From the IMG/VR virus record IMGVR_UViG_2541047758_000018: a stretch of DNA of 34,871 nucleotides; one strand, given 5' to 3'. The notes under the pieces were generated by a model. That model saw only the letters and a program-made list of their open reading frames with translations, ran no database searches and was not told the DNA's origin. The position numbers and the translations under genes are program-made. Positions 2,322-34,871 of this stretch are shown here, piece after piece; position 1 is the first letter of the stretch; every line of letters starts with the position of its first letter. This DNA is from a virus (lineage: Duplodnaviria; Heunggongvirae; Uroviricota; Caudoviricetes).

Positions 2322-2337
2322 AGTAGCTAACTATTCA

Positions 2338-2366: not shown

Positions 2367-2391
2367 TGTTCATATATGTACAGATACTTCC

Positions 2392-2432: not shown

Positions 2433-2435
2433 AGC

Positions 2436-3070: not shown

Positions 3071-3082
3071 CGGAGACTGAAA

Positions 3083-6412: not shown

Positions 6413-6422
6413 GGATGGAGCC

Positions 6423-11096: not shown

Positions 11097-11767
11097 TTAC
11101 CCATATAGCTCATAAACATCTCAATCGTGCCGTATACGAAAAAGGCGGTGATGGTGGTGCCTCTAAAGCTCAGGCGAAGGCCCAGCAGCAGGCAATTGAT
11201 TTGCAGCGCGAGCAGTGGAATACGGTGATGAATAATCTCAAGCCGTATGCAGAAGTCGGATTGCCTGCTTTACAACAACTGCAAGGACTGATGACTCTGG
11301 AAGGGCAGAATAAAGCCGCGAATGATTTCTTTGGTTCTGGTTTATATAAAACACAGGCAGATCAGGCCCGTTATCAGAACCTTGTCTCAGCAGAAGCTAC
11401 CGGGGGGCTTGGCTCAACAGCTACCAGTAACCAGTTATCTTCCATTGCGCCCATGCTTTATAACAATTGGCTCAGTGGGCAAATGCAAAATTATGGAAAC
11501 CTGCTAAATGTCGGGATGAATGCGGCATCAGGGCAGGCAACGGCAGGGCAAAACTACGCCAATAATACCGGACAACTCTTGCAGGGGCTTGGCGCTATTC
11601 GTGCAGGTCAGGCGCAGCAGCCATCCAGTCTTGCGCGTGGTATTGGTGGGGCAGCATCAGGCGCTTTAGCGGGTGCGCAACTTGGTTCCGTTGTTCCTGG
11701 AATAGGAACTGCGGCCGGCGCTATTGGTGGTGGGCTTATTGGTCTTGTTGGGGGGCTTGGATTCTAA
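11090..11767 (+). CDS. Gly/Ala/Gln-rich phage ejection (DNA-transfer/internal virion) protein-like, 225 aa
   Basis: N-terminal KGGDGGASKAQAKAQQQAIDLQREQW, a low-complexity G/A/Q body and a C-terminal hydrophobic GGLIGLVGGLGF tail. Size and order resemble the small ejection protein of P22-like phages. Confidence 0.55.
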   Translation: MLITHIAHKHLNRAVYEKGGDGGASKAQAKAQQQAIDLQREQWNTVMNNLKPYAEVGLPALQQLQGLMTLEGQNKAANDFFGSGLYKTQADQARYQNLVSAEATGGLGSTATSNQLSSIAPMLYNNWLSGQMQNYGNLLNVGMNAASGQATAGQNYANNTGQLLQGLGAIRAGQAQQPSSLARGIGGAASGALAGAQLGSVVPGIGTAAGAIGGGLIGLVGGLGF

Positions 11768-13086
11768 TGGCGACATGGCAACTTGGCGGGCTGCCTAGCA
11801 TGGCACCGCAAAATGATAATGCTCCTCGTTCTTCCGTTCCTCAGCCTGTGCAGTATCAGCAGCAGCCAAACGTAGGTTTAATGGCGCTACAGGGGCTAAG
11901 AGGCGTTGCTGAGATTAATCAGCAGGCGCAAATTTCCCAGCAGTTAAAAGAATATCAGGCACGGTTGGGTAGTGCGGTAGCTAATAATGATCGTGTTGGC
12001 GTGCAGAAGTTAATGGCCCAGTATCCCCAGTTTATGGCTGATTCTCAAAAACAGATGGGATTCATTGATGCTGAGCAAAATCGACAGACCGCTGACGCTG
12101 CCATGAATCTGCGTCTTGCGTCACAAACTGGAGATCCACTGACCATGCAGAAGGCCATTCAGCAGGCAAATCCAGTATTACAGCGATTTGGTCTTCCTGC
12201 TGAAGAGGTTTATCAGTCTTGGCAGAATGACCCACAGGAATTCAACAGAATCACTGACCTCATCCACCTCCATGCTGATCCAAATAGTTACTTTAGTGTT
12301 CAAGAGAAGCAGCAAGGGCAGAGCATTGCACAGCAGAACGCAGATACATCCGCATATAATGCTCAGGTTAATGCGGAACAGGGTAATCGACGTCTCGATA
12401 TGGAGCAGTTCAAAGTCCTATCCGATAACCAACTACGCACGAGAGAAATGGTTCTGAAAGCACGACTTGGACGTGCTCAAAATGACATCGAGAGAGACAA
12501 GCTCAATGCTGAACTGAGCAAGGTACAGCAGGCGAAAGTGGAGAAGATGAACGATAAAATTAATACTGTTGCAGGTAACATCGACTCCTTGAACTCTGCG
12601 CTTGAAGTGGGTCATGAACTGGCGGGAATTGTAGGGAAACATCCTTCGGCCGTTACCCGCTCGCAGAACTATAACCCCCTGACGCTGGGGTTTGGATTCC
12701 TTCCTGATGTAGCAGAAGACACACGAAGCCTACGCGCCAAAGCTGATGAATACAACCTAAAGGTTATTCTGCCTAGCCTCAAAGGGACTTTTGGCTCTAA
12801 CCCAACCGAAGGGGAAAGGGCTGCCCTTATGCAATCTCAAAATGGCATTAAGTCAGCAACCAGCAATGAGGCATTTTTGCGAGAGTTGAATAAAGCGCAG
12901 GACGTAATTATTCGAATGCAGAAACGACAGATTGCCGGGCTCGGTATTCCTGTAACCAAATCTAAGGACGAAGAAACTGATACCAAAATGCTGTTGCAGG
13001 ATCCTTCACTAGTTAAGGATTATGTGACCGCACATGGCTATCTGCCGGAAAGTTACTATCAGGCAAAACTTAAGGGATGGCAATGA
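11767..13086 (+). CDS. Gln-rich phage ejection/internal virion protein-like, 439 aa
   Basis: ATGG overlap with the upstream gene. It is Q-rich with predicted coiled-coil. It is the middle gene of a three-gene injection-protein-like set. Confidence 0.55.
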   Translation: MATWQLGGLPSMAPQNDNAPRSSVPQPVQYQQQPNVGLMALQGLRGVAEINQQAQISQQLKEYQARLGSAVANNDRVGVQKLMAQYPQFMADSQKQMGFIDAEQNRQTADAAMNLRLASQTGDPLTMQKAIQQANPVLQRFGLPAEEVYQSWQNDPQEFNRITDLIHLHADPNSYFSVQEKQQGQSIAQQNADTSAYNAQVNAEQGNRRLDMEQFKVLSDNQLRTREMVLKARLGRAQNDIERDKLNAELSKVQQAKVEKMNDKINTVAGNIDSLNSALEVGHELAGIVGKHPSAVTRSQNYNPLTLGFGFLPDVAEDTRSLRAKADEYNLKVILPSLKGTFGSNPTEGERAALMQSQNGIKSATSNEAFLRELNKAQDVIIRMQKRQIAGLGIPVTKSKDEETDTKMLLQDPSLVKDYVTAHGYLPESYYQAKLKGWQ

Positions 13087-15414
13087 TGGCACAACTGACA
13101 GAAAAACAGAAAGCCTATTCCCGTCATCTCGATGAAAAATATGGTTTCCCATCAGGGACGATGGAAACATTAGTTGGCAATGAATCTAGTGGTAACGGAA
13201 GTGCCGAGTCACCGAAAGGAGCTAGAGGATTTGCTCAACTGATGCCCTCAGTAATGAGTGATGCTGGTTATCGTGGAACAGATCCGCGCTCACTGCCATT
13301 TGAAAAGCAAATGGATATCGCAGCAAACCATCTCAATAAAGGAATGAAGCGATTTGGTGATATAGGTATGGCATTGGCTGGGTATAATTCTGGCTATGCT
13401 CGTATTAATGCCGTCAGAAACGGTAAATCTACACTGCCAGATGAAACGGCTAATTACGTAAGTAAATTTGCAGATGCTGGAATAATCCCTGATGACAGTG
13501 AAATCTTGCAGTTTGCACAAACCAGTCAACATCGCAATCTTCAGCAGCCTGACTACTCAGAGCTTGATAAAGAAATCTCTCAGGTGGGAGATATTTCTGC
13601 ATGGGAAGCAAAACGTCAGCAATTTAAGAACATAGAAGCAGGACTACCAACAGCCAGTTCATGGGAGCAGAAAAGAGCTCAGTTTCTCGCCGATGAAAAT
13701 GCCGGGGAACCGCAGCAGCAAGTAGCCAAGTCTAACCTTAATCCTGAGATGGAATATCTTTCGCCAGGACTGAAAGCTGCGCCAGAGCAGATGGCCAGAG
13801 GGATTGCTAATATACCGTTTGATGTAATGGACGCAGGCGTGGGGGTAGTCAATGCGGCGCAATCAGCCGGAGCATGGGCAGCTCAGAAGCTTGGTGTGGG
13901 TGATGGCACATACACGCCCATATCACCTGTCTTTCGCCCAGTAGACCAACCTACAGATCCATACGCGCAGGCTGGTGAGCAGCTAGCACCTTACCTTATT
14001 ACAGGATTAGGTGCAGGAAAGGCAGCTACCGCAGCTTCTTCAGTTGCCAACGCTCCACGTGCTGAACGTGCGGCCACAAAGGTGGCTAGTATGTTGGCAG
14101 AAAACCTGCCAGGTACATTGGTGAACGCCCAAAAGAACGGGCAGATCAGCCCAGAAGACCTAGCAAAAGAGACAGGTATTGGCCTAGCAGGATCGCTAGG
14201 AGCACGCGCTTTAATAAAGAGCGGACAGACAGCCAGTGACGTAATGCGAGATGTATTGCGGAGTAATACAAATCAATCAGGCCATGTGTTAGGGGCAGCA
14301 AATACTCTGGAAACCGCCAATGATGTATCGAAAGCAGCGCGTTCTGCCGTAGGCCGAGAGCATATCGCATCGCAGGCATCAAACGTCAGAGATGATGTCG
14401 CTAAGGCGGCGAAAATCACTGGTATTAATATCAACACCCTGACGCCTGGAATGCGCTCAGGTAGTCGTGGAATTGCCCAAGCAGAAGGTGTTCTGGCATC
14501 AACTCCTGGGAATGTTCAGGATGCTCACCTTACGGCCTTCAATGAAATATCCTCAAAGTTGAATAAGCAGTTGTCTGATTTCGGTGCTGAGTCTGGAAGC
14601 GCATCAGAAAAAAGCGCAGCAATTAAAGAGCGCATCATCGCGAGCCTCAGTGATATGAAAACAGCAGAGAATATGGCATGGGCAGAACTGCGAAGCACGA
14701 TGCCACGCGAAAGGATGAAAATGAGTAATGGGATGGCTGTCGTCCAAGCAGAAAAAGCAGCCAATGTTCCACTCAGCCCGGAGATGAAACAGTTTCAGGC
14801 TGCCAACAACCAAGGTGGCGGCATAACCTTCGACGGGATGAAGGCATGGCGTGCTAAGTTTGCTGATGCTGAACAAGCAAACACCCGGGCAGGTAAGGCC
14901 AATGCCGCCCGGATTGCCGGAGAAATGCGCAGAGCTATCACTGATGACATGCGCATCATGGCTGAAAAAGGAAACTTCCTCACAGAATGGCAGAAAGCTA
15001 ACGATCTCTCTAAAAGTTACATTATCGCCAAACAAAATGCCGAATCTGTTTTTGGTCGAGATCTCGCATCAGACGCTATGGTAAGAAAAGGTGCCGATAC
15101 GCTTAAGGCATCCGCAAACACTGGAACGGGAGCTTTTCACCGTCTTATCTCCGCGCTGCCGGAAGCAGAACGCCAACCTGCAATAGCATCTATTCTTCAG
15201 CATGCTGTGGCGCAGGGAGAGAAGGGAGGAATCGGTGAAGAGTCAGGTATCCAGTATTTTGCCAAGCTCATGACCCAGCAGAATGTAAACGCCATCAGTC
15301 GTCATGCGCCAGATCTCGGTAGAATGATGAAAGAGTTCGGTGTACTCGCTAAAGCCAGTACCAGACCGCAGCGATACGTAGAGCGCACGGGAAGAACAAC
15401 TGAGGCTCTCAAAA
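13077..15414 (+). pseudogene. large ejection/internal virion protein with N-terminal SLT lytic transglycosylase domain, 3' truncated by IS911
   Basis: SLT family-1 motifs are present: NESSGN...SPKGARGFAQLMP and the ALAGYNSGYARI (AYNxG) motif. The reading frame runs into the IS911 inverted repeat at about 15415, so the listed stop at 15569 is IS-derived. Confidence 0.75.
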
Positions 15415-15444
15415 TGAAGTGGTCAACAAAAACTGGCCACCGAG

Positions 15445-16628
<1,184 letters not shown>

Positions 16629-23595: not shown

Positions 23596-24828
23596 TTACT
23601 TCAGACAGTGAGTTTCCCATTCCTTGACTGCAAATGTATCCATCATACCTGAAATATAGTCAACCACTGCTCGTTTTTTGCTGATTTTAAATATATAGGA
23701 ATCTGGTTGGGGTAAGGTGAATTTAAGTTCAGGAGGCAGAAATTTATAATTCTCTCCTTCATTGTAAAAGTCATATAAATCCCTGATTATTTTATTTCCC
23801 CTGAACTCATAGGTGAGGATATTACGTTTTCGCATGATGACTTTAAAGAGAAGTTTTTTGAGCCCTTCGGATAACGCATTCAGTTTCCCGAATCCCAGTT
23901 CCTGAAAACCATTCAGGTTCGTTACTACAGAAATATCTGCAACGAGGCGATTGACAATATTTGAAGTTAACTCCTTGCGGAATATGATGGCAAATTCTTC
24001 TGAGGTTTTCAGTAAGTTAGCCTGAAAAGCGGTGTTTCTCGACTGAGTAACGATTTCCCTGAACTGTTCCCTCGCTCCCCGGAATTCGTCAGAAATCTGA
24101 AACTCATATTCAATATCTTCAATCGTGACCATGTTCCTGCTAAGGGCATCTTCCAGGTCATGCGCGGCATAGGCAATCTCATCCGCGAGATCCATTATCT
24201 GCGCATCAATCGTTTTCTCTCCGGGATTCAGATCGAGCTGATTTTCAGCAAGCAGGTTAATGTAAAAATAGTAATCATCATCATAAATGAACTTGCCGGC
24301 AGTAGCTGCAGCGCGGGGGATGGGATACTTAACAACCGAAAGTAAACTACGGTGAGTCAGATTTAATCCGTTGCAGTATGAAAATTTCTTCTCCAGTTTT
24401 CTCAGGATACGTAGCGCCTGTGCATTGCCTTCATAGCCGCCGATTTCTTCAGACAGTTCATTAAGCAGTTTTTCACCGGAATGACCGAAAGGAGGATTTC
24501 CGATGTCATGCGCCAGCGCTGCCAGTTCAACCACCACCGGGTTAACCAGTTTGAGGTCTGACGCGATACTTCGGGCGATCTGAGCAACCTCAAGACTGTG
24601 CGTTAATCTGTTTCTGTTGAATTTTTCAGGATCAATTTCAAAAAGTTGCATCTTTCCCTGCAGCCTGCGAAATGATGATGAATACAGAATACGCGCATAA
24701 TCCCGTTGATAATTATCCCGGCTTCTTGTTTCACCATCGGGGGACGGGTGCTCTCTGGTATCAGCAAGCGCACTGATAAGTTTTTGTTCCTGCTCTTGCG
24801 CAAATTCTTTTAATTCATTGCAGTACAT
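23596..24828 (-). CDS. dGTPase-family HD-domain deoxynucleoside triphosphate triphosphohydrolase (short form, about 410 aa)
   Basis: Contains NRNRLTHSLEVAQIARSIA and AHDIGNPPFGHSGE (cf. E. coli Dgt RTRLTHSMEVQQVGRYIA and MHDIGNPPFGHFGE), DLADEIAYAAHDLEDA, and an N-terminal RDYARILYSSSFRRLQGKMQ. The internal ATG at 24828 has an AAGGAAG SD. Confidence 0.85.
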   Translation of the reverse strand: MYCNELKEFAQEQEQKLISALADTREHPSPDGETRSRDNYQRDYARILYSSSFRRLQGKMQLFEIDPEKFNRNRLTHSLEVAQIARSIASDLKLVNPVVVELAALAHDIGNPPFGHSGEKLLNELSEEIGGYEGNAQALRILRKLEKKFSYCNGLNLTHRSLLSVVKYPIPRAAATAGKFIYDDDYYFYINLLAENQLDLNPGEKTIDAQIMDLADEIAYAAHDLEDALSRNMVTIEDIEYEFQISDEFRGAREQFREIVTQSRNTAFQANLLKTSEEFAIIFRKELTSNIVNRLVADISVVTNLNGFQELGFGKLNALSEGLKKLLFKVIMRKRNILTYEFRGNKIIRDLYDFYNEGENYKFLPPELKFTLPQPDSYIFKISKKRAVVDYISGMMDTFAVKEWETHCLK

Positions 24829-24978
24829 ATTTCTTCCTTTCTGGAGCATGTTACCAAATCAGAATACCGGATGAACAAAACTGGTGGCTACATCCTGTAG
24901 GGATTATGTATTAGTAAGCTCTGGCCATTAGTGCCATTTCAGGTTATGTGATCCTACTCACGTAATATGGACACAGGC

Positions 24979-25845
24979 CTAAGTGAGGTTCTGGTTTTCA
25001 AATTGTTCCGGACTGAGGCCGCCACACCAACTGTGCCGCCGCCACCGATTGTAATCACATTCGATATAATTAAACACCGTTGCCCGCATTATTTCCCGGC
25101 TGATAAAGTGTTCTCCATGGATACATTCCACTTTCAGCGAATGAAAGAAGCTTTCCACGCAGGCATTATCGTAGCAGCAACCTTTTGCGCTCATACTTCC
25201 ACGCAGATTATGCCGCTTCAGTTGCGCCTGATAATCTGCTGAACAGTACTGGCCTCCACGGTCCGTGTGAACGATAACGTTCCGGGGCCTCTTACGCCGC
25301 CACAGCGCCATCTGCAGGGCATCGCAGGCCAGTTGCGCCGTCATGCGTGGCGACATTGACCAGCCAATAACGGCACGTGACCACAGGTCAATGACCACTG
25401 CCAGATACAGCCAGCCTTCATCTGTACGTAAGTACGTGATGTCTCCTGCCCACTTCTGGTTCGGGCCACTGGCGTAAAAATCCTGCTCCAACAGATTTTC
25501 TGACACAGGCAGGCCGTGTGCGCGGTAGCTGACCGGGCTGAACTTCCGGGAGGCCTTTGCCCTCAGTCCCTGACGGCGCAGGCTTGCCGCCACGGTTTTT
25601 ACGTTAAAGGGGTAACCCTGAGCACGCAGTTCATCCGTCAGGCGTGGGGCACCGTAACGCTGTTTTGACCGGGTAAAAGCCGCGAGGACAACGCTGTCGC
25701 AGTGTTGGCGGAACTGCTGACGCGTGCTTATCCTTGTCCGCCGCTGACACCACGTATACCAGCCGCTGCGGGCCACCCGGAGCACGCGGCACATTGCTTT
25801 GATGCTGAACTCAGCCTGATGTTTTTCAATAAAGACATACTTCAT
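24979..25845 (-). CDS. insF: IS3 OrfB transposase (InsF-like, DDE)
   Basis: [32 protein letters not shown]...[26 protein letters not shown]...[10 protein letters not shown]... Confidence 0.85.
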
Positions 25846-26150
25846 TTCAGGCGCTTCGCGAAGTATGTCGCGGCCTTTTGGAGGATAGCCAGCTCTTCAT
25901 CCCGTTCTGCCAGCTGGCGTTTGAGACGTGCAATCTCGGTAGACATCTCCAGTTCACGTTCAGAAGACGTCTGCTGATTTTGCTGTTTACTGCGCCAGTT
26001 GTAGAGTTGTGATTCATACAGGCTGAGTTCACGGGCTGCGGCAGTAACACCGATGCGTTCAGCAAGCTTCAGGGCTTCACTGCGAAATTCAGGCGAATGC
26101 TGTTTACGGGGTTTTTTACTGGTTGATACTGTTTTTGTCATGTGAGTCAC
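25842..26150 (-). CDS. insE: IS3 OrfA transposase (InsE-like)
   Basis: [50 protein letters not shown]... Confidence 0.85.
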
Positions 26151-26297
26151 CTCTGACTGAGAGTTTACTCACTTAGCCGCGTGTCCACTATTGCTGGGTA
26201 AGATCACCCTGTGAACCATGTTGATATTGATACTATATTGACTATATGCCATACAGGTGGTAATGATTAGTTACTACCATACAGGAAAAGGTAGAAA

Positions 26298-27278
26298 ATG
26301 ACTCTTTTGGTAACGGCTGAGTGTGTTGACGATCTGATAAACGATGTTCATCAAGCTATCCTAGCGGATGGACTCAGTAACGATCCTACAAAAGGATCAA
26401 CTCTAGAGATTCTTGGTGCCTATCTTGTCCTTACCGACCCCCGCCGAAGAATAAGTAGAACAGAATCCCGAGGAAAACTAATTAGTTGCTTAGGTGAATT
26501 TCTGTGGTATCTCTCAGCTCAGAACGATCTTGAGTTTATAAAACACTTCATACCACGTTACGCTGAATCCGCTGAGTCAGATGGGAAAATACATGGTGGT
26601 TACGGGCCACGGTTGTTTAATATGCGTGGTTTATATAATCAGCTAAAAAATGTCATCAACCTTTTGCAGGAGAAAAAACCTACCAGACGTGCAGTAATAC
26701 AGCTTTTCGATGCCTCAGACTTGGTGCCCTCAAAAACTGAACAGCGAGAATACGTAGATATTCCTTGTACAATATCTATGCAGTTTATTGTCAGATGTGA
26801 AGAGCTGCATCTATTTGTTTGTATGCGTTCTAACGATGCCTTTATGGGGCTGCCTCATGATGTATTTGCGTTCACGATGCTACAGGAATTAGTTGCCCGC
26901 TTGATAGGATGCGAATTGGGTCACTATCATCACTTTGTATCCAGCCTACATCTCTATAAAAATGATTTAGAAAAAGTGAAGGCTCTTCAGAAAGAGGGGT
27001 TCATGAGCACCCTACCAGTCATGGGATCGATGCCTGAAATGCATTCCTTAGATGATATCTTACCCCTGCTTGAGGCAGAAAAAGCTCTTCGAGAGAATAA
27101 GGAATTTGATATTGACACTACTTCCTTGAATGACTACTGGAAGGATTTATTGCGTATATTAAAAATCCACTTTTTGTTACGTTCACATACACCCAACCAC
27201 AAAGGACTAGCCTTCCAAGAGTTGGCTGCAATGAAAAATCAGGAATATCGGTTTATTTTTGAAGGAAGACTACAATGA
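26298..27278 (+). CDS. thymidylate synthase-family enzyme (ThyA/dCMP-hydroxymethylase fold) with dCMP-type active-site signature
   Basis: Four motif matches support the TS fold. HGGYGPRLFNMRG matches TS GDLGPVYGFQWR. RRAVIQLFDASDL matches RRIIVSAWNPxDL. DIPCTISMQFIV matches the catalytic LPPCHALCQFYV. CMRSNDAFMGLPHDVFAFTML matches [21 protein letters not shown]. The specificity Asn of PFN is replaced by Asp (PHD), as in dCMP hydroxymethylases. Confidence 0.75.
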   Translation: MTLLVTAECVDDLINDVHQAILADGLSNDPTKGSTLEILGAYLVLTDPRRRISRTESRGKLISCLGEFLWYLSAQNDLEFIKHFIPRYAESAESDGKIHGGYGPRLFNMRGLYNQLKNVINLLQEKKPTRRAVIQLFDASDLVPSKTEQREYVDIPCTISMQFIVRCEELHLFVCMRSNDAFMGLPHDVFAFTMLQELVARLIGCELGHYHHFVSSLHLYKNDLEKVKALQKEGFMSTLPVMGSMPEMHSLDDILPLLEAEKALRENKEFDIDTTSLNDYWKDLLRILKIHFLLRSHTPNHKGLAFQELAAMKNQEYRFIFEGRLQ

Positions 27279-28219
27279 AAAGACATAATCAAATCAGTCA
27301 GCTGGTTAGTAATTTGCAAAATTTTAGCCGCAATGAACACAACCTAAATGGTCTAAGTTCTCCTGCCTGCTTTGATGTTTTAGCCTGTCAGATTATCGAC
27401 AGTATACGTCGTATACGCTATGTGGAAACTCTTGCATTACGGACCGATTATATGACTCCGTTACGAAAAGAGCCGAATTCTGATGTTTTTGATCCTCTCC
27501 GCGCTGCCTGCCTTTATCTTCGTGACAACAATTACGATGAAGCCTGCTGGCTGGTTTTCCTTGCCACACATTTCGGCAAGAGTAACAAAACCGGCTGGAT
27601 TTTGTGTCGAGATATATACAGTGGACTCGGTACACAAACGTGGACATGGGATACGATAACTGATGACTTTGCTGCTTTTGAACAATGGTTCGCCAGCGTC
27701 TCTGATGAGTTGACAGCTAACAGTAGCCTAAGACAATATGGTAACCATCGGAAATATGAAACGAAGAAATATCACTCTCGTCGTTCAATACCTGCGGTTT
27801 TTCGCTCTTACATCGGATTCATTGGTGCTACACACAGTCATGAGGCTAGGTTTGCAGAGGCCAAGAGCTTTTCATCTTCACCAGAATCTTTATTCGAACT
27901 ATTGTATTCAGGGCTAAATGCCGTGATCTCATTTGGACGAACCGCAAAATTTGATTACCTAACTATGCTCAAGAAAACGGGACTTCTGGATGTAGAGCCG
28001 GGTCATGCTTTTCTGAATGGAGCAACCGGGCCCCTTCAAGGAAGCCGGCTACTTTTCAGCAATAGCCGGACTGCTGGTGACACAATAGACGTATTGAATG
28101 AAAAACTAGCTGACCTTGCGGCAATTATTCCTGCACCCTACTTGAGAATGCAGGTTATTGAAGATGCGTTGTGCAACTGGCAGAAATCACCTGACCGTTA
28201 TGTCTATTTCGGCGGCTGA
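27275..28219 (+). CDS. unknown 314 aa partner protein, translationally coupled (ATGA) to TS-like gene
   Basis: No confident family. There is a weak helix-hairpin-helix-like segment ISFGRTAKFDYLTMLKKTGLLDV. It may be a DNA-binding/base-modifying or glycosylase-like protein. Confidence 0.55.
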   Translation: MKRHNQISQLVSNLQNFSRNEHNLNGLSSPACFDVLACQIIDSIRRIRYVETLALRTDYMTPLRKEPNSDVFDPLRAACLYLRDNNYDEACWLVFLATHFGKSNKTGWILCRDIYSGLGTQTWTWDTITDDFAAFEQWFASVSDELTANSSLRQYGNHRKYETKKYHSRRSIPAVFRSYIGFIGATHSHEARFAEAKSFSSSPESLFELLYSGLNAVISFGRTAKFDYLTMLKKTGLLDVEPGHAFLNGATGPLQGSRLLFSNSRTAGDTIDVLNEKLADLAAIIPAPYLRMQVIEDALCNWQKSPDRYVYFGG

Positions 28220-28221
28220 TA

Positions 28222-29304
28222 TCAGACGATATCTTCTTTACGGAATCTCACTTTAAACCGATTAAGGTGAGAAAAAGGTATATTACCTTCATGCTGCAAA
28301 TATCCCAGTACGATCCCTTTGGATACCCCCATTTTCCTAGCTAACCGGATGATCTCTTTCCAATGCCGGACACCATAGCGACTAAGTTGCTGCCGGTATT
28401 CTTCTGGGATAAGAACATCAACGGCAAATTTATCTGCTTCCTTTTCCTCTTCCGACGAAAGACTATCTTTACCTTCTACGCGAACTCGGACAGCTTCATG
28501 CAAGATGAGATGCCCAATCTCATGAAACAGCGTAAACCAAAAATGGTCATCGGTCAGATAACGGAAACTCATGACTAGGGTTGCGCGATCTGGTGTAAAA
28601 AAGCAGGTAGCACCACTTGCCCGACATCCCTTTGGCGTTGGCAACACAACGAGAGAAACTCCAGCAGTGGCGAGAAGGTCGCGAATGTAAGGGATAAAAA
28701 TCCTCATGTCGGGTTCATTTGTAGCTTTGCGCAGTTCTGGCAACAATGCTATCAGCACCTCTTTATCCCATACAGCACAGTTTTGGTTTGAGGTAAGTTG
28801 TGCAGCCCTAGTCAGCCACACCAAATCGGCCATAGGCTCGGTTGCCAGATTAAGAGATTTACGAAAAGCGACCAAAGGAGCATCTGACTGAATTTTATAA
28901 AAAAAATCATTGACGGAATTTATTCCGAAAAACGATAGGCAGTGCTGGAATTTACTTTCCCGAGTTGTAGTTTTGGGGATCCAACCAAACTCCATCATAT
29001 CACGTACAGGCAATGATTCGAGCCAATCATTATTCACTTTCTCGAGGTATCCAATTTGCTGGCGATAAGCGACTTCGCGCTTGATCCAGAAGTCTGTCGA
29101 TACGTTGAATAACTCCTCAAGCTTACAAGCCAGAGACTCATTGAGTCGGATTTTTCCTTCAAGAAGTTGCTGACCCCGGATAAGAGACAATCCAATCCTC
29201 TTACTCAGTTCTTCACCAGAAAGCCCATGTTCATCCATTAGATCTATAATTGTATCACCGGGTGGAGATACCCAGTCAGGCTGGAAGTCCTGCGTAACTA
29301 TCAT
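28222..29304 (-). CDS. HigA-like antitoxin/regulator: N-terminal XRE-family HTH fused to ImmA/IrrE (M78, HEIGH) metallopeptidase domain
   Basis: The N-terminus PGDTIIDLMDEHGLSGEELSKRIGLSLIRGQQLLEGKIRLNESLACKLEELFNVSTDFW is a HigA-type HTH. The C-terminus FHEIGHLILHE...EEEKEADKFAVDVLIP is an ImmA/IrrE zinc-peptidase motif. An ATGA overlap joins it to the upstream small gene. Confidence 0.75.
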   Translation of the reverse strand: MIVTQDFQPDWVSPPGDTIIDLMDEHGLSGEELSKRIGLSLIRGQQLLEGKIRLNESLACKLEELFNVSTDFWIKREVAYRQQIGYLEKVNNDWLESLPVRDMMEFGWIPKTTTRESKFQHCLSFFGINSVNDFFYKIQSDAPLVAFRKSLNLATEPMADLVWLTRAAQLTSNQNCAVWDKEVLIALLPELRKATNEPDMRIFIPYIRDLLATAGVSLVVLPTPKGCRASGATCFFTPDRATLVMSFRYLTDDHFWFTLFHEIGHLILHEAVRVRVEGKDSLSSEEEKEADKFAVDVLIPEEYRQQLSRYGVRHWKEIIRLARKMGVSKGIVLGYLQHEGNIPFSHLNRFKVRFRKEDIV

Positions 29305-29627
29305 TTCACGTCACCTATGAACACTAACCGTATCCGGCTAACTCGGGACCAGTTAATTGTATTATCTTGATTTTTGGGCTGAACTGTATTCCCACAGACA
29401 AATCCCATTTTTACATCACCGAGAATGGTAATTGTAATACACTCTTCCCCATCCTCAAAGCAGACCTCCGGCGAACCTACGGGCAACAGTAATATGTTGT
29501 CTGTCACGGAAAGATCGGAAAGTCGCGAGCGTAGTCTTGATGCCACTTTGTCACCAAAGATCTCATTTGCCTCATGCATACTCTCGCAAATAGTCCTTAA
29601 CTTCTTGCTTTGAAAGGTAATGAACAA
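29301..29627 (-). CDS. putative HigB/killer-protein (RelE-superfamily) toxin-like small protein, TTG start
   Basis: 108 aa. KKLRTICESMHEANEIFGDKVASRLRSRLSDL...ITITILGDVKMGF loosely fits the PF05015-like pattern K.L..LF...RL..L..A..L.DL...WSITV..NWRITF. The only in-frame start is TTG, which lowers confidence. Confidence 0.4.
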   Translation of the reverse strand: MFITFQSKKLRTICESMHEANEIFGDKVASRLRSRLSDLSVTDNILLLPVGSPEVCFEDGEECITITILGDVKMGFVCGNTVQPKNQDNTINWSRVSRIRLVFIGDVK

Positions 29628-29651
29628 AATTATCCACTTTTATTTTTCTTG

Positions 29652-29694
29652 GTTGCTACGTTTATAGCAAACTCAACGCTCATTCACAAAATGA
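29652..29694. promoter_or_regulatory. two palindromes in divergent intergenic region: TTGCTA(N6)TAGCAA and CTCATT(N5)AATGAG; candidate HigA/XRE operators
   Basis: Read directly. The region lies between the HigB-like gene and the MazG-like gene. Confidence 0.4.
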
Positions 29695-29770
29695 GATGTA
29701 GCGAATTAATGGACTCTGCACATATTAAATGTTAATGATGGACTTAAAATCACGGATTCGTAAGGGAAAC

Positions 29771-30034
29771 ATGAAAGGTAAACATCAAGACACTAAAGCC
29801 CTGTCTGACGTGCTAGCGGAAATGCAACGGCAGGATGCCAAATGGGGGGCAGACCGTAATCAAGATCCTTTTATCTGGGGAGCGATTCTCGGAGAAGAGG
29901 TGGGAGAATTTCATCAGGCTGTCCTCCATGATCGTTTTGGTGGTAAAGCAGCCGGTACCAGTAGGGAGGAAGCAGTACAAATTGCTGCTGTTGCACTGCA
30001 AATCATCGAATATTATGATCGCGTAATAGATTGA
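29771..30034 (+). CDS. small MazG-like all-alpha NTP pyrophosphohydrolase (87 aa)
   Basis: LSDVLAEMQRQDAKWG...FIWGAILGEEVGEFHQAVL carries the EExGE motif of MazG/HisE-type NTP-PPases common in phages (T4 dCTPase gp56 belongs to this superfamily). The internal ATG with an AAGGGA SD is preferred over the track start at 29729. Confidence 0.6.
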   Translation: MKGKHQDTKALSDVLAEMQRQDAKWGADRNQDPFIWGAILGEEVGEFHQAVLHDRFGGKAAGTSREEAVQIAAVALQIIEYYDRVID

Positions 30035-30336
30035 TAAATTAGAATTAATCAACTAAGAGTCTTTTACACGCGAAGATGAACTCTGGCAGCCATCTACCTT
30101 CGTGGGCCTGTAGAACACATCTAATTGCAATACTCCCAGTTAATCACTAACCAGCCTCTCCAGTAAGGCTGGTCGATTAGGTTTAATTAAACAGATATAA
30201 CAAGCAATTCACTTGGTATTACGCGGTTCACACAGACTTCTTTAGTTGTGTCATATCCTATAACTTTCAGAGGCTTATTTACGGTATTATCACGAACGGT
30301 GCAAAAGTGGCTCTTCCGCAACCTAGGTGGAGATTT

Positions 30337-31454: not shown

Positions 31455-34400
31455 TTGATGGAGCAGTCTCTCAATTTTGAAATGTTGCGCAGCCAGTGGC
31501 CGGAACTGGCTGAACTCGCGTGTATGGCGGAACGCTATGTTCACTCCGATCCGGAAAGTTGTCTGGTCAAGCTGCGCAACTACACTGAATTGATGGTGCG
31601 CTGGTTGTATCGTCAGGAGCGGTTGCCGGAAGGTATTAAGGCTAATCTTTACGATTTAATGAATGCTGATGTCTTTACCAGCATGATGCCGGAAGCCATC
31701 ATCATGAAAATGGATGCGCTGCGTATCCATGGCAACCGTGCCGCGCACGGCGGACGTATCAAAGCTAAAGATACTTACTGGCTGCTCAAAGAAGCGTATT
31801 TGTTGGGAATTTGGCTGTATGTTCGCTACGCCCACGGTAATGTTGATGACTGCCCCAAATTTACACTCCCTCCATTAACACAATCTTCAGGTCGTGCAGA
31901 TGAAAAACGTCTGGAAGATGCAATCAGGGCTCAGGATGAAAGCCGTGAGCGCGAACTGGCGCTGCAACGCGCACTACAGCAAGAACAGGAAAAGGCCGAA
32001 CACCTCACTCAACGCCTGAATGAAGCCAGAGCGCGTAACCAGCATGTTGCCGATATTCTCTCTATTGATGAAGCGGAAACCCGCCGTCGCCTGATTGACT
32101 CTCGCCTGCTTGCTGCTGACTGGAATGTAGGCGAAGGCCTTAAAAATACCGATCAGGTTACGCAGGAACATCCCGTTAAAGAACAACCTACCGCGACCGG
32201 AGACGGTTATGCGGACTATGTCTTGTGGGATGAGGCACACAAACCGCTGGCGGTGGTGGAAGCAAAAAAAACCAGCGTCAATGCCGAGCAAGGACGAATT
32301 CAGGCCCGGCTGTATGCAGACTGGCTGGAAAAAGAATACGGCCAGCGTCCGATCATCTTCTACACCAACGGCTATGATATCTGGCTGTGGGATGACCATA
32401 AAACTCATGGTTATCCCCCGCGTCGGGTGTTTGGCTTCTACAGCAAGGAAAGCCTGCAATATCTTATTCAACAGCGTGAAACCCGTCTTCCGCTGAACAG
32501 TGTGCCGCACGTAAAAGATAACGAAGGTAAGGCCGTTGCCGGACGTTTGTACCAGCTTGAAACCATTGCCCGTGTCAGCGAGCGGTTTACCAACAAATAC
32601 CGGCAATCGCTAATTGTTCAGGCTACGGGTACAGGCAAAACCCGCGTGGCAATAGCGCTAAGCAAACTGATGATTGATGCCCGCTGGGTAAAACGCGTCC
32701 TGTTTCTTTGCGACCGCAAGGAACTACGTAAACAGGCGGCGAATGCCTTTAATCAATTCACCAATGAGCCGCTGTATGTGGTCGGGAAATCGAAAAAAGC
32801 AGACAGGCAGAATGCTAGGATCTACATCGCCACCTATCCTGGTATGATGAAAATCATGGACCATTTCGATGTTGGTTATTTCGATTTGATCATCGCCGAT
32901 GAATCCCATCGCTCTATCTACAACGTTTACGGCGATCTGTTTAAGTATTTTGATGCCCTCCAGATTGGCCTGACGGCCACGCCGATTGACATGGTGAGTA
33001 AAACCACTTTCGGCCTGTTTGGTTGTGAAGGACGTATTCCTACCGCCAACTACAGCCTGGAAGATGCCATCGCCGATAACAATCTGGTTCCCTATGAGGT
33101 TGTCACGCACACCACAGAATTCCTGCGCGAAGGCATCAAACGGGAGAAATTAAGCGACGCACAAATCCGCGAGCTGGAAGAACAAGGCATAGATCCCAAT
33201 ACGCTGGAGTTTGATGGCAAGGCGCTGGATGAGGCGATCTACAACAAAGACACCAACCGCTATATCCTGCGTAACCTGATGGAAAATGGCCTGAAAGATC
33301 GGGACGGCCAGTTGCCAGGTAAAACCATCATTTTCGCCCGTAACCACAAACACGCGCTGCTGTTGAATGAATTATTCGACGATATGTACCCGCAGTTTGC
33401 CGGGCGCTTCTGCCAGGTCATCGACAATTACGATCCCCGCGCCGAGCAACTGATTGATGATTTTAAAGGGCTGGATGAAAGCACCAACAAAGAGCTGACC
33501 ATCGCTATCTCCGTTGACATGCTCGATACCGGTATTGATGTCCCGGAAATTGTGAATCTGGTCTTTGCCAAACCGGTCAAATCAAAAGTGAAGTTCTGGC
33601 AGATGATTGGCCGTGGTACGCGCCTCTGTCCGGGGTTGTACGGTTACGACGATAACGGCAAACCTCTGGATAAACAGAAATTCCGCATTTTCGATCACTG
33701 GGGCAATTTTGAGTATCACGAACTGCATACCGAAGAGGCCGAAGTCACAGCGACAAAATCGCTTGCACAAAAACGCTTCGAAGCGTGGGTTATGCTGGGG
33801 GCCGCTGCGCAACGTAAATTCGACAAACAGGCGGTGGATTTAGTTGCTCACCAGCTACGCGAGCAAATCAATGCACTGGATGAAAAGTCGATTGCCGTCC
33901 AGGAAAAGTGGCATCAAAAAGCGCAGTACAGCGATGAAAAAGTGCTGCGCCAGCTTTCCCCGAAAACACAGCAGGATTTGCTATCTGTCCTGGCCCCGCT
34001 GATGCAGTGGCTGGACGTGCGCGGGCAAAGCGACGCTATGCGCTTTGATATGGATATTCTGGCGGCGCAAACTGCCCGTTATACCAACCCGGAAGAGCTG
34101 GATGTGCTCTGGCCGGTCATCGTCGAAAAAGTGGAGCGCCTGCCGCCGCATTTGGCGCAAGTCCAACAGCAAGGACCGCGGATCAATCAGCTTCGTGATT
34201 TAGGCTGGTGGAAGCAGGCCAGCCTGGAAGAGCTGGAAGATATCCGCATTCATCTGCGCGGCATCATGCACCTGATGGAAAAAGACGCGACGCCGAAATT
34301 TGGTTCGATACAGGTGGATATTACCGAAGATGCGAACCTGATTCAGACGGAAAACCGTAAAACCAACATCCGCTCGATTGACTTCAAACTCTATCGCCAG

Positions 34401-34871
34401 CAGGTGCAGGGAGCGCTGGAGCCGCTGTTCCAGCAAAATCCGGTGCTGAAGAAAATCCGCAACGGCGAGCCTGTGACGCAAAGCGAGCTGGATGAACTGG
34501 CTAAACTGGTGCTGATCCAGAACCCTAACGTTGATATCCGGGCACTGAAAGAGTTCTACCCGCAGGCGACCGCCAGCCTGGATAAACTATTGCGTACCAT
34601 CATCGGGATGGACAGCGACGCGGTGGAAGTGCGCTTTGCTCAGTTCGCCGCTGATAACAGCCTGACCAGCCAGCAATTGCGCTTCCTGTCATTGCTGAAA
34701 AACCACATTCGCGATTACGGCACCATTGAAATGCGGCAGCTCTTTGAACAGCCTTTTACGCATATCCACAACGAAGGCGTTACCGGTGTGTTCCCTGATA
34801 TAGAACAGATCGCCCGCCTACAAAAGATAGTCGAAGAGCTGGGTGTTGTGACCGACGCAGCAACGGTATAA
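31455..34871 (+). CDS. hsdR: type I restriction enzyme R subunit (HsdR), 1138 aa, ends at window edge
   Basis: The N-terminal nuclease domain reads GYADYVLWDEAHKPLAVVEAKKTSV (cf. EcoKI ADYVLFVGLKPIAVVEAKR). SF2 helicase motifs IVQATGTGKTRVAIAL, LIIADESHRS and GLTATP are present. An EcoKI-like DUF4145 N-terminus is present. The true start is the TTG at 31455 or the ATG 3 nt later. Confidence 0.9.
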   Translation: MMEQSLNFEMLRSQWPELAELACMAERYVHSDPESCLVKLRNYTELMVRWLYRQERLPEGIKANLYDLMNADVFTSMMPEAIIMKMDALRIHGNRAAHGGRIKAKDTYWLLKEAYLLGIWLYVRYAHGNVDDCPKFTLPPLTQSSGRADEKRLEDAIRAQDESRERELALQRALQQEQEKAEHLTQRLNEARARNQHVADILSIDEAETRRRLIDSRLLAADWNVGEGLKNTDQVTQEHPVKEQPTATGDGYADYVLWDEAHKPLAVVEAKKTSVNAEQGRIQARLYADWLEKEYGQRPIIFYTNGYDIWLWDDHKTHGYPPRRVFGFYSKESLQYLIQQRETRLPLNSVPHVKDNEGKAVAGRLYQLETIARVSERFTNKYRQSLIVQATGTGKTRVAIALSKLMIDARWVKRVLFLCDRKELRKQAANAFNQFTNEPLYVVGKSKKADRQNARIYIATYPGMMKIMDHFDVGYFDLIIADESHRSIYNVYGDLFKYFDALQIGLTATPIDMVSKTTFGLFGCEGRIPTANYSLEDAIADNNLVPYEVVTHTTEFLREGIKREKLSDAQIRELEEQGIDPNTLEFDGKALDEAIYNKDTNRYILRNLMENGLKDRDGQLPGKTIIFARNHKHALLLNELFDDMYPQFAGRFCQVIDNYDPRAEQLIDDFKGLDESTNKELTIAISVDMLDTGIDVPEIVNLVFAKPVKSKVKFWQMIGRGTRLCPGLYGYDDNGKPLDKQKFRIFDHWGNFEYHELHTEEAEVTATKSLAQKRFEAWVMLGAAAQRKFDKQAVDLVAHQLREQINALDEKSIAVQEKWHQKAQYSDEKVLRQLSPKTQQDLLSVLAPLMQWLDVRGQSDAMRFDMDILAAQTARYTNPEELDVLWPVIVEKVERLPPHLAQVQQQGPRINQLRDLGWWKQASLEELEDIRIHLRGIMHLMEKDATPKFGSIQVDITEDANLIQTENRKTNIRSIDFKLYRQQVQGALEPLFQQNPVLKKIRNGEPVTQSELDELAKLVLIQNPNVDIRALKEFYPQATASLDKLLRTIIGMDSDAVEVRFAQFAADNSLTSQQLRFLSLLKNHIRDYGTIEMRQLFEQPFTHIHNEGVTGVFPDIEQIARLQKIVEELGVVTDAATV

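What the first reader, a model, noticed from the sequence alone, without database searches (positions are those of the whole stretch)
26298..28219. Two-gene operon: thymidylate-synthase-fold enzyme with dCMP-type active site plus unknown coupled partner. Candidate novel nucleotide-modifying (defence?) module
The 326 aa protein has all core ThyA/dCMP-hydroxymethylase motifs, including the catalytic Cys in PCTISMQF. The residue aligned to the dUMP-specifying Asn of the PFN motif is Asp (PHD). That is the hallmark of dCMP-specific family members such as T-even gp42. The protein also carries an about 60 aa N-terminal extension.

It is translationally coupled (ATGA overlap) to a 314 aa protein with no recognisable catalytic motif and a possible HhH-like DNA-binding segment. 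The pair sits in AT-rich IS-flanked cargo, next to a dGTPase-family gene, a MazG-like NTP pyrophosphatase and a TA-like module, and about 3 kb from a type I hsdR. In phages, TS homologs paired with accessory enzymes make hydroxymethyl-pyrimidine precursors for DNA hypermodification.

In a chromosomal island, the same chemistry could mark or poison replicating phage DNA or deplete dCMP. I know of no described anti-phage system built on a TS-fold enzyme.
Basis: partly seen in the sequence, partly recalled or inferred. Interest (0 to 1): 0.82.

Follow-up and report, generated by a model that had tools for sequence, protein, structure and literature searches.

The report
Cytosine-modifying four-gene defence-like cassette
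The two genes are real, but they are half of a four-gene mobile cassette found in over 400 bacterial species: a predicted dCMP hydroxymethylase and a relative of phage DNA-hypermodification enzymes, joined to a toxin-antitoxin-like control pair. The cassette is probably an anti-phage system that has been predicted in print but never tested.

Summary
Both ORFs and their ATGA overlap are as described. Gene 1 is a thymidylate-synthase-fold enzyme whose closest solved relative is the CMP hydroxymethylase MilA. It has Asp at the ThyA Asn177 position, an acidic residue at Leu143, and the deoxyribose-type Ser and Arg, so it is a predicted dCMP 5-hydroxymethylase. The claimed 60-aa N-terminal extension is wrong; the extra length is a MilA-like C-terminal domain.

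Gene 2 is not an unknown. It is a clade-3 aGPT-Pplase (Pfam PF18746) with a helix-hairpin-helix (HhH) glycosylase fold. It keeps the Glu-x-x-x-Cys core of the characterised phage amino-acid:DNA transferases.

The pair is almost always followed, convergently, by a HigB-like small gene and an HTH-M78 peptidase gene related to PD-lambda-2B. The four genes co-diverge across many phyla. A quarter of the cassettes add a UDG-fold gene. No kinase is linked, and the family is absent from 50,697 isolated phage genomes. The nearby dGTPase is not linked.

DefensePredictor (Science 2026) lists this exact TS protein as a predicted defence gene and validated a different TS-containing system, DS-4. I file this as a new, untested variant, with interest 0.58.

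The parts
26238..26267 (+). Promoter-like site of the TS operon (TTGACT, 17-18 nt spacer, TGGTAATGAT). A short imperfect palindrome overlaps the -10 element.
   Evidence: Found by the consensus scan. TTGACT and GTGGTAATGAT are conserved across eight enterobacterial cassettes, while the DNA further upstream is unrelated. Function is inferred, not shown.
26298..27278 (+). MilA-like thymidylate-synthase-fold enzyme, predicted dCMP 5-hydroxymethylase (326 aa; RefSeq WP_000174035.1).
   Evidence: Pfam PF00303 at 5.3e-25. The best PDB match is MilA, 5b6d/5jnh, at 1.6e-41 over residues 26-304. Determinant residues: Cys157=C146, Asp188=N177, Asp154=L143, Ser178=S167, Arg130=R126. Their meaning is taken from PMC5175136 and PMC13326640.
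27275..28219 (+). Clade-3 aGPT-Pplase (314 aa; WP_000820616.1). HhH-glycosylase fold, with the predicted catalytic pair Glu296/Cys300.
28222..29304 (-). HTH (Xre/HigA-like) fused to an M78 ImmA/IrrE metallopeptidase (360 aa, HEIGH motif). Homologous to PD-lambda-2B. Its stop codon lies 2 nt from the stop of gene 2.
   Evidence: Pfam HTH_3 and Peptidase_M78. PADLOC PD-Lambda-2_B at 3.3e-30. Present in 79/80 genome loci and 23/24 IMG/VR loci. The junction sequence was read directly.
29301..29627 (-). Small HigB/RelE-like protein (108 aa, TTG start). It overlaps the HTH-M78 gene by ATGA. It is not annotated in the E. coli RefSeq records inspected.
   Evidence: Its cluster is present in 78/80 loci. 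The alignment has conserved F5, L10, R11, C14, W93 and R98. The HigB signal is weak: Pfam HigB-like in 2/47 members at 0.0018, and PDB 'killer protein' 6f8s at E 0.85. ATGA overlap read directly. No CDS is annotated at this position in L001 or under the matches.
29729..30034 (+). MazG-like small protein. It belongs to the roughly 4 kb block shared by Enterobacteriaceae but not to the universal cassette.
   Evidence: RefSeq product name. phrog_24212 at 4e-37. The block 26206-30228 is shared with Kluyvera and Yokenella (94-95% identity), and a shorter block ending at about 30026 with Citrobacter, Enterobacter and Raoultella (about 80%). Homologs occur in only 7/80 genome loci and 4/24 viral loci.

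Best explanation
The finding is the enzymatic half of a self-contained, horizontally mobile four-gene cassette (window 26298-29627; the shared enterobacterial block is 26206-30228).

Operon 1 encodes two enzymes. The first is a MilA-like thymidylate-synthase-fold enzyme predicted to convert dCMP and methylene-tetrahydrofolate into 5-hydroxymethyl-dCMP. The second, translationally coupled to it, is a clade-3 aGPT-Pplase. This HhH-glycosylase-fold enzyme keeps the Glu/Cys pair that phage amino-acid:DNA transferases use to attack C6 of a 5-(phospho)hydroxymethyl-pyrimidine and swap the group on the C5 methylene.

Operon 2 is convergent, with its stop codon 2 nt from that of operon 1. It encodes a HigB-like small protein and an HTH-M78 peptidase homologous to the A/B pair of the validated abortive-infection system PD-lambda-2.

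My reading is that the TA-like pair senses or gates, and the two enzymes are the payload. On infection they would turn deoxycytidylate into a 5-substituted-methyl cytosine nucleotide that the cell cannot use normally. That would drain dCMP, dCTP and folate, or put an abnormal base into replicating DNA. In about a quarter of cassettes an extra UDG-fold protein could then recognise or excise that base. Either way, phage replication would be blocked.

What is shown: gene structure, family and fold membership, active-site residue conservation, four-gene synteny and co-divergence, and absence from isolated phages.

What is inferred: the substrates and products of both enzymes, whether gene 2 acts on nucleotides or on DNA, the regulatory logic, and the anti-phage role itself.
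For: - Synteny: the order TS+ (UDG-like+) Pplase+ HTH-M78- small- holds in about 70 of 80 loci from many phyla. TS is present in 76/80, HTH-M78 in 79/80 and the small gene in 78/80. The same cassette is found in 24 IMG/VR loci and on plasmids.
- Co-divergence: the pairwise-identity matrices of the four proteins correlate at r 0.67-0.75 over 65 loci.
- TS chemistry: MilA is the best solved relative, at 1.6e-41. Across cassette homologs, Cys is 72/72, Asp at N177 is 72/72, Asp/Glu at L143 is 65/72, Ser167 is 72/72 and Arg126 is 71/72. The meaning of these positions comes from PMC5175136 and PMC13326640.
- Defence link: the HTH-M78 protein matches PD-Lambda-2_B at 3.3e-30, and PD-lambda-2 is a validated Abi system (PMC9519451). 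WP_000174035.1 is a DefensePredictor 'predicted novel defense gene' with log-odds 7.6. About 45% of such predictions validated when tested. An aGPT-Pplase system is highlighted there as predicted, and a TS system (DS-4) was validated.
- Context: in this window the cassette sits between a dGTPase and a type I RM system, on IS-rich, low-GC cargo.
Against: - There is no experimental test of this cassette. It is not in the tested-system tables of PMC13092281 that are held as text.
- PADLOC has no model for either enzyme.
- No dNMP kinase or 5-hmdU-type DNA kinase is linked in any of the 80 loci. How a hydroxymethyl group would be activated, or how hm-dCMP would reach DNA, is therefore unexplained. 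From general knowledge, T4 needs its own gp1 kinase for hm-dCMP.
- Clade 3 lacks the FGPW Trp and the wedge Phe/Asp of the characterised clade-2 enzymes, so its substrate and co-substrate may differ.
- The clade-2/clade-3 profile alignment is statistically weak on its own (probability 2%, E 0.022). A clade-3 profile finds nothing in PDB by sequence.
- Flanking genes across taxa are heterogeneous. They include recombinases and integrases, some RM and GmrSD genes, and many housekeeping genes, so this is not a uniform defence-island signal.
- The HigB assignment of the small protein is weak.
Confidence: 0.5

Rival explanations
1. Pure addiction or stabilisation module. The HigB-like/HTH-M78 pair and the two enzymes would together form a toxin-antitoxin-type cassette that keeps the mobile element in the population, with the nucleotide-modifying enzymes as the toxic principle and no specific role against phages.
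For: The architecture is TA-like, with ATGA-coupled small and HTH genes. The cassette travels on islands, plasmids and prophage-like contigs. Flanks are enriched in recombinases and integrases rather than being uniformly defence genes. PD-lambda-2B is itself toxic when overexpressed.
Against: The closest characterised relative of the control pair does protect against phage. The machine-learning defence score is high. In Kluyvera/Yokenella and in this window the cassette lies next to a type I RM system. The two roles are also not mutually exclusive.
Confidence: 0.17
2. Self-DNA hypermodification. The enzymes would install a modified cytosine in the DNA of the host or the mobile element to protect it from restriction or to mark self, as phage thymidine-hypermodification pathways and bacterial dpd 7-deazaguanine islands do.
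For: Gene 2 is homologous to enzymes that modify DNA post-replicatively. The HhH hairpin-like FGRTAK motif is invariant. UDG-fold partners in 23/80 loci point to DNA-level events. The cassette lies next to RM genes here.
Against: No dNMP or dNDP kinase, DNA kinase or dedicated polymerase is linked that would get hm-dC into DNA. No cognate nuclease is conserved. The cassette is tied to a TA/Abi-like control pair rather than expressed like a constitutive modification system. The clade is absent from isolated phage genomes, where such protective pathways are found.
Confidence: 0.12
3. Small-molecule pathway at the nucleotide level, analogous to MilA/MilB or BcmA/BcmB. The TS homolog would make a hydroxymethyl-cytidylate, and the glycosylase-fold partner would cleave or convert it to a free 5-hydroxymethylcytosine-type base or antimetabolite.
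Against: Gene 1 has the deoxyribose-type Ser/Arg rather than MilA's Ala/Lys. Gene 2 keeps the Glu/Cys C6-attack signature rather than a glycosidase signature. No tailoring, export or resistance genes are linked. UDG-fold partners suggest DNA.
Confidence: 0.12
4. Ordinary or back-up thymidylate synthase, with an unrelated neighbour.
For: RefSeq names gene 1 'thymidylate synthase', and it matches Pfam PF00303.
Against: All ThyA equivalog models score far below their cut-offs. Asn177 is Asp and Leu143 is Asp. Synteny with three other genes is nearly invariant across phyla. The gene is present in only about 4% of complete E. coli genomes.
Confidence: 0.02

Closest known systems
[quoted passage not shown]
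   Different: The TS here is cytosine-type (Asp) rather than uracil-type. No DNA kinase is linked, so there is no phosphate leaving group. The FGPW Trp and the wedge Phe/Asp are replaced. No PLP, radical-SAM or FAD tailoring enzymes are present. The genes are carried by bacteria, plasmids and prophage-like elements and are absent from 50,697 phage genomes. They are coupled to a TA-like pair.
DS-4 (working name NTTI), a validated E. coli anti-phage system from DefensePredictor (PMC13092281)
   Same: It is a chromosomal or MGE-borne E. coli system containing a TS-fold enzyme with an acidic residue at the L143 position, alongside enzymes of the 5-hydroxymethyl-pyrimidine hypermodification tool-kit.
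   Different: The DS-4 TS is only 29% identical to gene 1 and has Asn at position 177, so it is uracil-type. DS-4 also has a dNMP kinase, a 5-hmdU DNA kinase, a TIR protein and a fifth gene, none of which is present here. It has no aGPT-Pplase and no HTH-M78/HigB-like pair.
PD-lambda-2, a validated three-gene abortive-infection system (PMC9519451)
   Same: It has a HigB-like first gene followed by a gene for an Xre/HigA-type HTH fused to a peptidase. The HTH-M78 protein here matches the PD-Lambda-2_B model at 3.3e-30 over nearly its full length.
   Different: The third component of PD-lambda-2, a P4-antitoxin-like protein, is replaced here by a convergent two-enzyme operon. The small protein gives no hit to any PADLOC model, including that for PD-lambda-2A.
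MilA / BcmA CMP 5-hydroxymethylases and T4 gp42 dCMP hydroxymethylase
   Same: The catalytic Cys, the cytosine-specifying Asp and the acidic residue at the water-access position are shared. The MilA-type C-terminal helical domain is also shared.
   Different: Ribose-determining Lys133/Ala176 of MilA are Arg/Ser here, which is the deoxy type. The genomic setting is neither an antibiotic cluster nor a T-even phage.

Membership tests
Housekeeping thymidylate synthase ThyA | Score above the NCBIfam equivalog cut-offs | tested here: not met
   The best model, NF002497, scores 81.4 bits against a cut-off of 327. All eight models are below their cut-offs.
Housekeeping thymidylate synthase ThyA | Asn177 (dUMP specificity) and a hydrophobic Leu143 (water exclusion) | tested here: not met
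   Asp188 and Asp154 align to these positions. The N177-equivalent position is Asp in 72/72 cassette homologs.
Thymidylate-synthase superfamily (PF00303) | Profile match plus the catalytic Cys146, Arg166, Asp169, His207, Tyr209 and Glu58 | tested here: met
   PF00303 at 5.3e-25, 88.5 bits against a cut-off of 24.3. All six residues are conserved in 69-72 of 72 homologs.
Deoxycytidylate 5-hydroxymethylase (functional class of T4 gp42) | Asp at the 177 position, Asp/Glu at 143, and the deoxyribose-type Ser167/Arg126 | tested here: met
   D188, D154, S178 and R130. The rules come from PMC5175136 and PMC13326640. RB69/DLP3-type enzymes with the same two substitutions make 5-hydroxy-dCMP instead, so the product is not certain.
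Deoxycytidylate 5-hydroxymethylase (functional class of T4 gp42) | Measured conversion of dCMP and CH2-THF to 5-hm-dCMP | not testable with these tools
   This needs an enzyme assay.
MilA/BcmA CMP hydroxymethylase | Lys133/Ala176 ribose determinants | tested here: not met
   In the HMMER alignment to 5jnh, Arg130 and Ser178 occupy these positions.
aGPT-Pplase clade 3 (Pfam PF18746) | Profile match above the gathering score over the full length | tested here: met
   302.2 bits against a cut-off of 25; residues 34-313 match profile positions 4-278 of 279. Newer RefSeq records name it as such.
Amino-acid:DNA transferase (clade-2 aGPT-Pplase; M6 gp51, PaMx11 gp46) | HhH-glycosylase-like fold shared with the solved enzyme | tested here: met
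   [not shown]
Amino-acid:DNA transferase (clade-2 aGPT-Pplase; M6 gp51, PaMx11 gp46) | Essential Cys, with Glu four residues upstream | tested here: met
   E296 and C300 are invariant and align to M6 gp51 E243 and C247. That alignment is weak on its own (probability 2%), but it lies inside the region covered by the PF18724 hit at 9e-59.
Amino-acid:DNA transferase (clade-2 aGPT-Pplase; M6 gp51, PaMx11 gp46) | FGPW motif (the Trp clamps the base and binds the amino acid) and the wedge Phe/Asp | tested here: not met
   FGPW aligns to FGRT, and MFKDP aligns to GATGP. The roles of these residues are from PMC11472151.
Amino-acid:DNA transferase (clade-2 aGPT-Pplase; M6 gp51, PaMx11 gp46) | Co-occurrence with a 5-hmdU DNA kinase and a uracil-type hydroxymethylase, in phage genomes | tested here: not met
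   No kinase cluster was found in the 80 neighbourhoods. The TS is Asp-type. There are 0 hits in 50,697 phage records and no PHROG match.
DS-4 (DefensePredictor) | TS together with a dNMP kinase, a 5-hmdU DNA kinase, TIR and a fifth gene | tested here: not met
   Only a distant TS homolog is shared, at 29% identity. None of the other components occurs in the window cassette or in the conserved neighbourhood.
PD-lambda-2 | B component: HTH fused to a peptidase | tested here: met
   PDLC03982 at 3.3e-30; residues 15-341 match profile positions 60-378 of 402. An HEIGH motif is present in the translation.
PD-lambda-2 | A component: HigB-like toxin-fold protein encoded upstream | tested here: inconclusive
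   The position and the ATGA coupling fit. The small protein has no PADLOC hit at E up to 10. Only 2/47 homologs touch Pfam HigB-like, at 0.0018.
PD-lambda-2 | C component: P4-antitoxin-like protein | tested here: not met
   It is not among the conserved neighbours. The TS/Pplase operon occupies the third position instead.

The most novel reading that the evidence does not exclude
A bacterial immune cassette that weaponises DNA-hypermodification chemistry against phages. On infection, the PD-lambda-2-like pair would unleash a dCMP hydroxymethylase and a kinase-independent clade-3 aGPT-Pplase. Together they would make a previously unknown 5-substituted-methyl-cytosine nucleotide or DNA base. 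The result would be to starve or poison phage replication, or to mark DNA for excision by the UDG-fold partner present in some cassettes. This would be the first known activity for clade 3, and the first aGPT-Pplase chemistry on cytosine.
Probability: 0.3. Interest if true: 0.8.

Novelty: new variant of a known kind. Interest (0 to 1): 0.58.

Why it matters
If the cassette defends against phage, it would show that bacteria have taken over the hypermodification enzymes phages use to escape restriction, in a form that needs no kinase and acts on cytosine rather than thymine precursors. That implies new enzymology for a family of about 3,900 protein clusters with no known activity. It would also add a mechanistically distinct member to nucleotide-pool and DNA-modification-based immunity, alongside dCTP deaminase, dGTPase, viperins and DS-4. 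Finally, it would show the PD-lambda-2-type HigB/HTH-peptidase pair acting as a portable control module for different payloads. The system is native to E. coli, only 3.3 kb long, and directly testable.

Tried and rejected
- PADLOC models for the two enzymes and the small protein: none found.
- NCBIfam and PHROGs for gene 2: none found.
- Sequence search of PDB with gene 2 alone and with the clade-3 profile: nothing meaningful. Only the fold search found the clade-2 structure.
- hhalign of the clade-3 profile against single M6 ORFs: failed. M6 gp51 was located by its ETVLC and FGPW motifs instead.
- Search for an operator shared by the two promoter regions: no shared word longer than 7 nt. The CCATACAGG direct repeat upstream of the TS gene is not conserved beyond close relatives, so I dropped it as evidence.
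- Linkage of the dGTPase (0/80) and hsdR (5/80) to the pair: rejected.
- Iyer et al. 2013 and Burroughs et al. 2015, the papers that defined aGPT-Pplase and predicted related conflict systems, are not in the held library. I could not check what they say about clade 3 and its TS neighbour.
- Literature searches found no experimental work on clade 3.
- The PMC13092281 figures are not held, so I could not confirm that its Fig. 6F/S12A 'aGPT-Pplase system' is this cassette.
Full report
OBSERVATION.

The two ORFs exist exactly as reported: 26298-27278 (+, 326 aa) and 27275-28219 (+, 314 aa). They overlap by ATGA, with a Shine-Dalgarno-like GAAGGAAG stretch upstream. The region has 40-45% GC, against about 50% or more in the window's GC-rich stretches. 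It lies between an IS3 (ORFs 24979-26150) and a gene annotated as a transposase remnant at the equivalent position in strain 4FM.

The whole 1.9 kb is at least 99% identical in 232-233 of 5,426 complete E. coli genomes, always on the chromosome. The window is therefore E. coli accessory DNA.

GENE 1.

Pfam gives Thymidylat_synt at 5.3e-25. Every NCBIfam ThyA equivalog scores far below its cut-off, for example 81 against 327 bits. The closest solved protein is the CMP 5-hydroxymethylase MilA (5b6d/5jnh, E 1.6e-41, residues 26-304). E. coli-type ThyA chains reach only about 1e-11.

I aligned the window protein with E. coli ThyA, the DS-4 TS and 72 cassette homologs. The correspondences are:
- Cys157 = Cys146 (72/72 homologs)
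- Asp188 = Asn177 (Asp in 72/72)
- Asp154 = Leu143 (Asp 49, Glu 16)
- Ser178 = Ser167 (72/72)
- Arg130 = Arg126 (71/72)
- Glu58, Arg166, Asp169, His207 and Tyr209 are also conserved.

Published work assigns these positions as follows. Asp at 177 specifies cytosine. An acidic residue at 143 admits water, which gives a hydroxymethylase rather than a methylase. Ser/Arg, rather than MilA's Ala176/Lys133, gives a preference for deoxyribose (PMC5175136; PMC13326640).

Gene 1 is therefore a predicted dCMP 5-hydroxymethylase. One caveat applies: RB69/DLP3-type enzymes carry the same two substitutions and make 5-hydroxy-dCMP.

The N-terminal offset to ThyA is about 10 residues. The extra length is a C-terminal helical domain shared with MilA.

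GENE 2.

This is not an unknown protein. It matches Pfam aGPT-Pplase3 (PF18746) at 4.8e-90 and ADDT (PF18724) at 9.1e-59. Newer RefSeq records already name it. It has about 3,900 homolog clusters. Its invariant residues include Q293, E296, D297, C300, N301, W302, Q303 and K304, and an HhH-hairpin-like FGRTAK motif.

The characterised clade-2 enzymes use a Cys to attack C6 of 5-phosphomethyl-dU in DNA. The phosphate is expelled and an amino acid is added to the exocyclic methylene. A Glu four residues upstream of the Cys is essential (PMC8989533; PMC11472151).

I located M6 gp51 in the phage genome (ETVLC at 243-247, FGPW at 152-155). Its homologs all carry PF18724. A profile-profile alignment of clade 3 against the M6-like set is weak statistically (probability 2%, E 0.022). 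However, it aligns MQVLEDALCNWQK with NIQEVETVLCKWKS, which puts E296 on E243, C300 on C247 and W302 on W249. It also aligns FGRT with FGPW and GATGP with MFKDP.

The catalytic core is therefore kept. What is not kept is the Trp that clamps the base and binds glycine, and the wedge Phe/Asp. The Thr next to the Glu, whose side chain helps hold the metal that contacts thymine O4 in PaMx11 gp46, is Asp here. This echoes the Asn-to-Asp switch in the TS, although that reading is my inference.

THE UNIT IS FOUR GENES.

A scan of one genome per species found 420 species with a relative of gene 2. I examined the best 80 loci. They come from Gamma-, Alpha- and Betaproteobacteria, Myxococcota, Acidobacteriota, Planctomycetota, Bacteroidota, Verrucomicrobiota, Chloroflexota, Actinomycetota, Saccharibacteria, Leptospira and others.
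- A TS homolog lies just upstream on the same strand in 76-77 loci.
- An HTH-M78 peptidase gene lies downstream on the opposite strand in 79.
- A gene of about 110 aa lies upstream of the HTH-M78 gene in 78.

The order TS+ (extra+) Pplase+ HTH-M78- small- holds in about 70 of 80 loci. The stop codons of gene 2 and the HTH-M78 gene are usually 0-10 nt apart or overlapping; in the window the gap is 2 nt. Three of the loci without a TS are cut by a contig end, and the fourth is an eroded cassette.

Pairwise-identity matrices of the four proteins correlate at r 0.67-0.75. This fits inheritance as one unit. The same cassette is annotated independently on an Agrobacterium plasmid. It occurs on 10 plasmids and in 24 IMG/VR contigs. 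Gene 2 has no match in 50,697 isolated phage genomes and no PHROG family.

In the window, the two extra genes are 28222-29304 (-) and 29301-29627 (-):
- The first has HTH_3 and Peptidase_M78 domains, an HEIGH motif, and a PADLOC PD-Lambda-2_B match at 3.3e-30.
- The second is 108 aa with a TTG start, is ATGA-coupled to the first, and is unannotated in the E. coli RefSeq records inspected.

The small protein looks HigB/RelE-like, but only weakly. PD-lambda-2 is a validated abortive-infection system made of a HigB-like protein, an HTH-peptidase that is toxic unless the first protein is present, and a third, accessory gene (PMC9519451).

WHAT IS NOT LINKED.

The dGTPase next door has no counterpart in any of the 80 loci. 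hsdR is found in 5/80. The MazG-like gene is found in 7/80, all close enterobacterial relatives.

The block shared with Kluyvera and Yokenella is window 26206-30228, and a shorter block ending at about 30026 is shared with other enterics. It starts at or just after the right end of the IS3. A conserved promoter-like site (TTGACT, 17-18 nt spacer, TGGTAATGAT, 26238-26267) lies inside the block and is intact.

No kinase of any kind is a conserved neighbour. Flanking genes across taxa are heterogeneous. They include recombinases and integrases, some type I methylases and GmrSD genes, and many housekeeping genes.

AN OPTIONAL FIFTH COMPONENT.

In 23 of 80 loci a gene of about 266 aa sits between the TS and Pplase genes. 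It has no Pfam family but about 2,400 homolog clusters.

PRIOR KNOWLEDGE.

The aGPT-Pplase family and its HhH fold were defined by Aravind and co-workers in 2013, as cited. I could not read that paper.

DefensePredictor (Science 2026, PMC13092281) bears on this finding in four ways:
- It validated DS-4, made of a TS, a dNMP kinase, a 5-hmdU DNA kinase, TIR and a fifth gene.
- It highlights an aGPT-Pplase-containing system as predicted but untested.
- Its Table S10 lists the exact protein WP_000174035.1 as a 'Predicted novel defense gene' with log-odds 7.6.
- That protein is absent from the tested-system tables held as text. Overall, 45% of tested predictions were validated.

The DS-4 TS is 29% identical to gene 1 and is Asn-type. 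I found no experimental paper on clade 3.

MECHANISM.

My best reading, at confidence about 0.5, is a conflict cassette. A PD-lambda-2-like HigB/HTH-peptidase pair would gate a two-step cytosine C5 pathway: dCMP to 5-hm-dCMP by gene 1, then Cys300/Glu296-dependent chemistry at the C5 methylene by gene 2.

The result would be one of two things. Either deoxycytidylate and folate are drained into a product the cell cannot re-use, or an abnormal cytosine appears in replicating DNA. The second outcome fits the UDG-fold partners. From general knowledge, E. coli cannot efficiently phosphorylate hm-dCMP, which is why T4 carries its gp1 kinase.

Rivals are:
- a pure addiction module (0.17)
- protective self-DNA modification (0.12)
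- a MilA/MilB-like small-molecule pathway (0.12)
- an ordinary ThyA (0.02)

The missing kinase, the replaced FGPW and wedge residues, and the lack of any experiment are the main weaknesses.

VERDICT.

The feature is a real, widespread, four-gene system whose enzymes belong to named families. It has been predicted to be defensive in print, but it is untested and has no known chemistry. I classify it as a new variant of a known kind, with interest 0.58.

Noticed in passing
window 29301-29627 (-): The conserved 108-aa HigB-like gene has a TTG start. No CDS is annotated at this position in the E. coli RefSeq records inspected (L001 and the 12 records listed). Its counterpart on an Agrobacterium plasmid is annotated. 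Conserved N-terminal residues F5, L10, R11 and C14 require the TTG start.
   Followed up: yes
[not shown]
   Followed up: yes
window 28217-28224 and related loci: The stop codons of the convergent Pplase and HTH-M78 genes are 2 nt apart here and overlap by 4-11 nt in many taxa. That leaves no room for terminators, so the two operons should transcribe into each other. Mutual antisense control is possible.
   Followed up: partly
window 29729-30034 (+): A MazG-like small protein is linked to the cassette only in Enterobacteriaceae (7/80 genome loci, 4/24 viral loci). By analogy with T4 gp56 dCTPase, which feeds gp42, it could supply dCMP from dCTP. This is speculative and untested.
   Followed up: partly
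window 23596-24849 (-): A dGTPase-family gene (PADLOC dGTPase 1.4e-109; NCBIfam antiphage_dGTPase below its cut-off) is intact here but frameshifted in strain 4FM. It is not linked to the cassette in other taxa (0/80).
   Followed up: yes
window 24979-26205: The IS3 sits immediately left of the shared cassette block, about 30 bp upstream of the -35 of the TS promoter-like site. The same insertion is present in strain 4FM.
   Followed up: partly
window 26249-26285: A direct repeat, CCATACAGG x2, flanks the -10 of the TS promoter-like site. An imperfect palindrome, GGTGGTAA-N7-TTACTACC, overlaps the -10. The repeat is not conserved beyond close relatives, but the GTGGTAATGAT..GTTAC core is.
   Followed up: partly
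window 1-9871: A P4-like satellite module: an integrase (1-1260), int-alpA RNA (1269-1335), AntA- and Ash-family genes, isrK (4466-4543) and C4 antisense RNA (4606-4693), and a DUF927/Toprim primase (7112-9871).
   Followed up: no
window 10635-15569: P22-type ejection-protein genes (gp7-like, injectosome translocase, SLT-domain protein) lie directly after the P4-like module. This is an odd mosaic for a satellite.
   Followed up: no
L002 (Kluyvera) and L007 (Yokenella), 275-7024: In these genera the same cassette follows a homolog of the window's type I hsdR and a type I methylase gene (hsdM-like), instead of preceding hsdR as it does here. The cassette and the RM system stay neighbours, but in a rearranged order.
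   Followed up: partly
window 31455-34871 (+): A type I restriction R subunit (PADLOC REase_I 1.3e-273) runs off the right end of the window.
   Followed up: no
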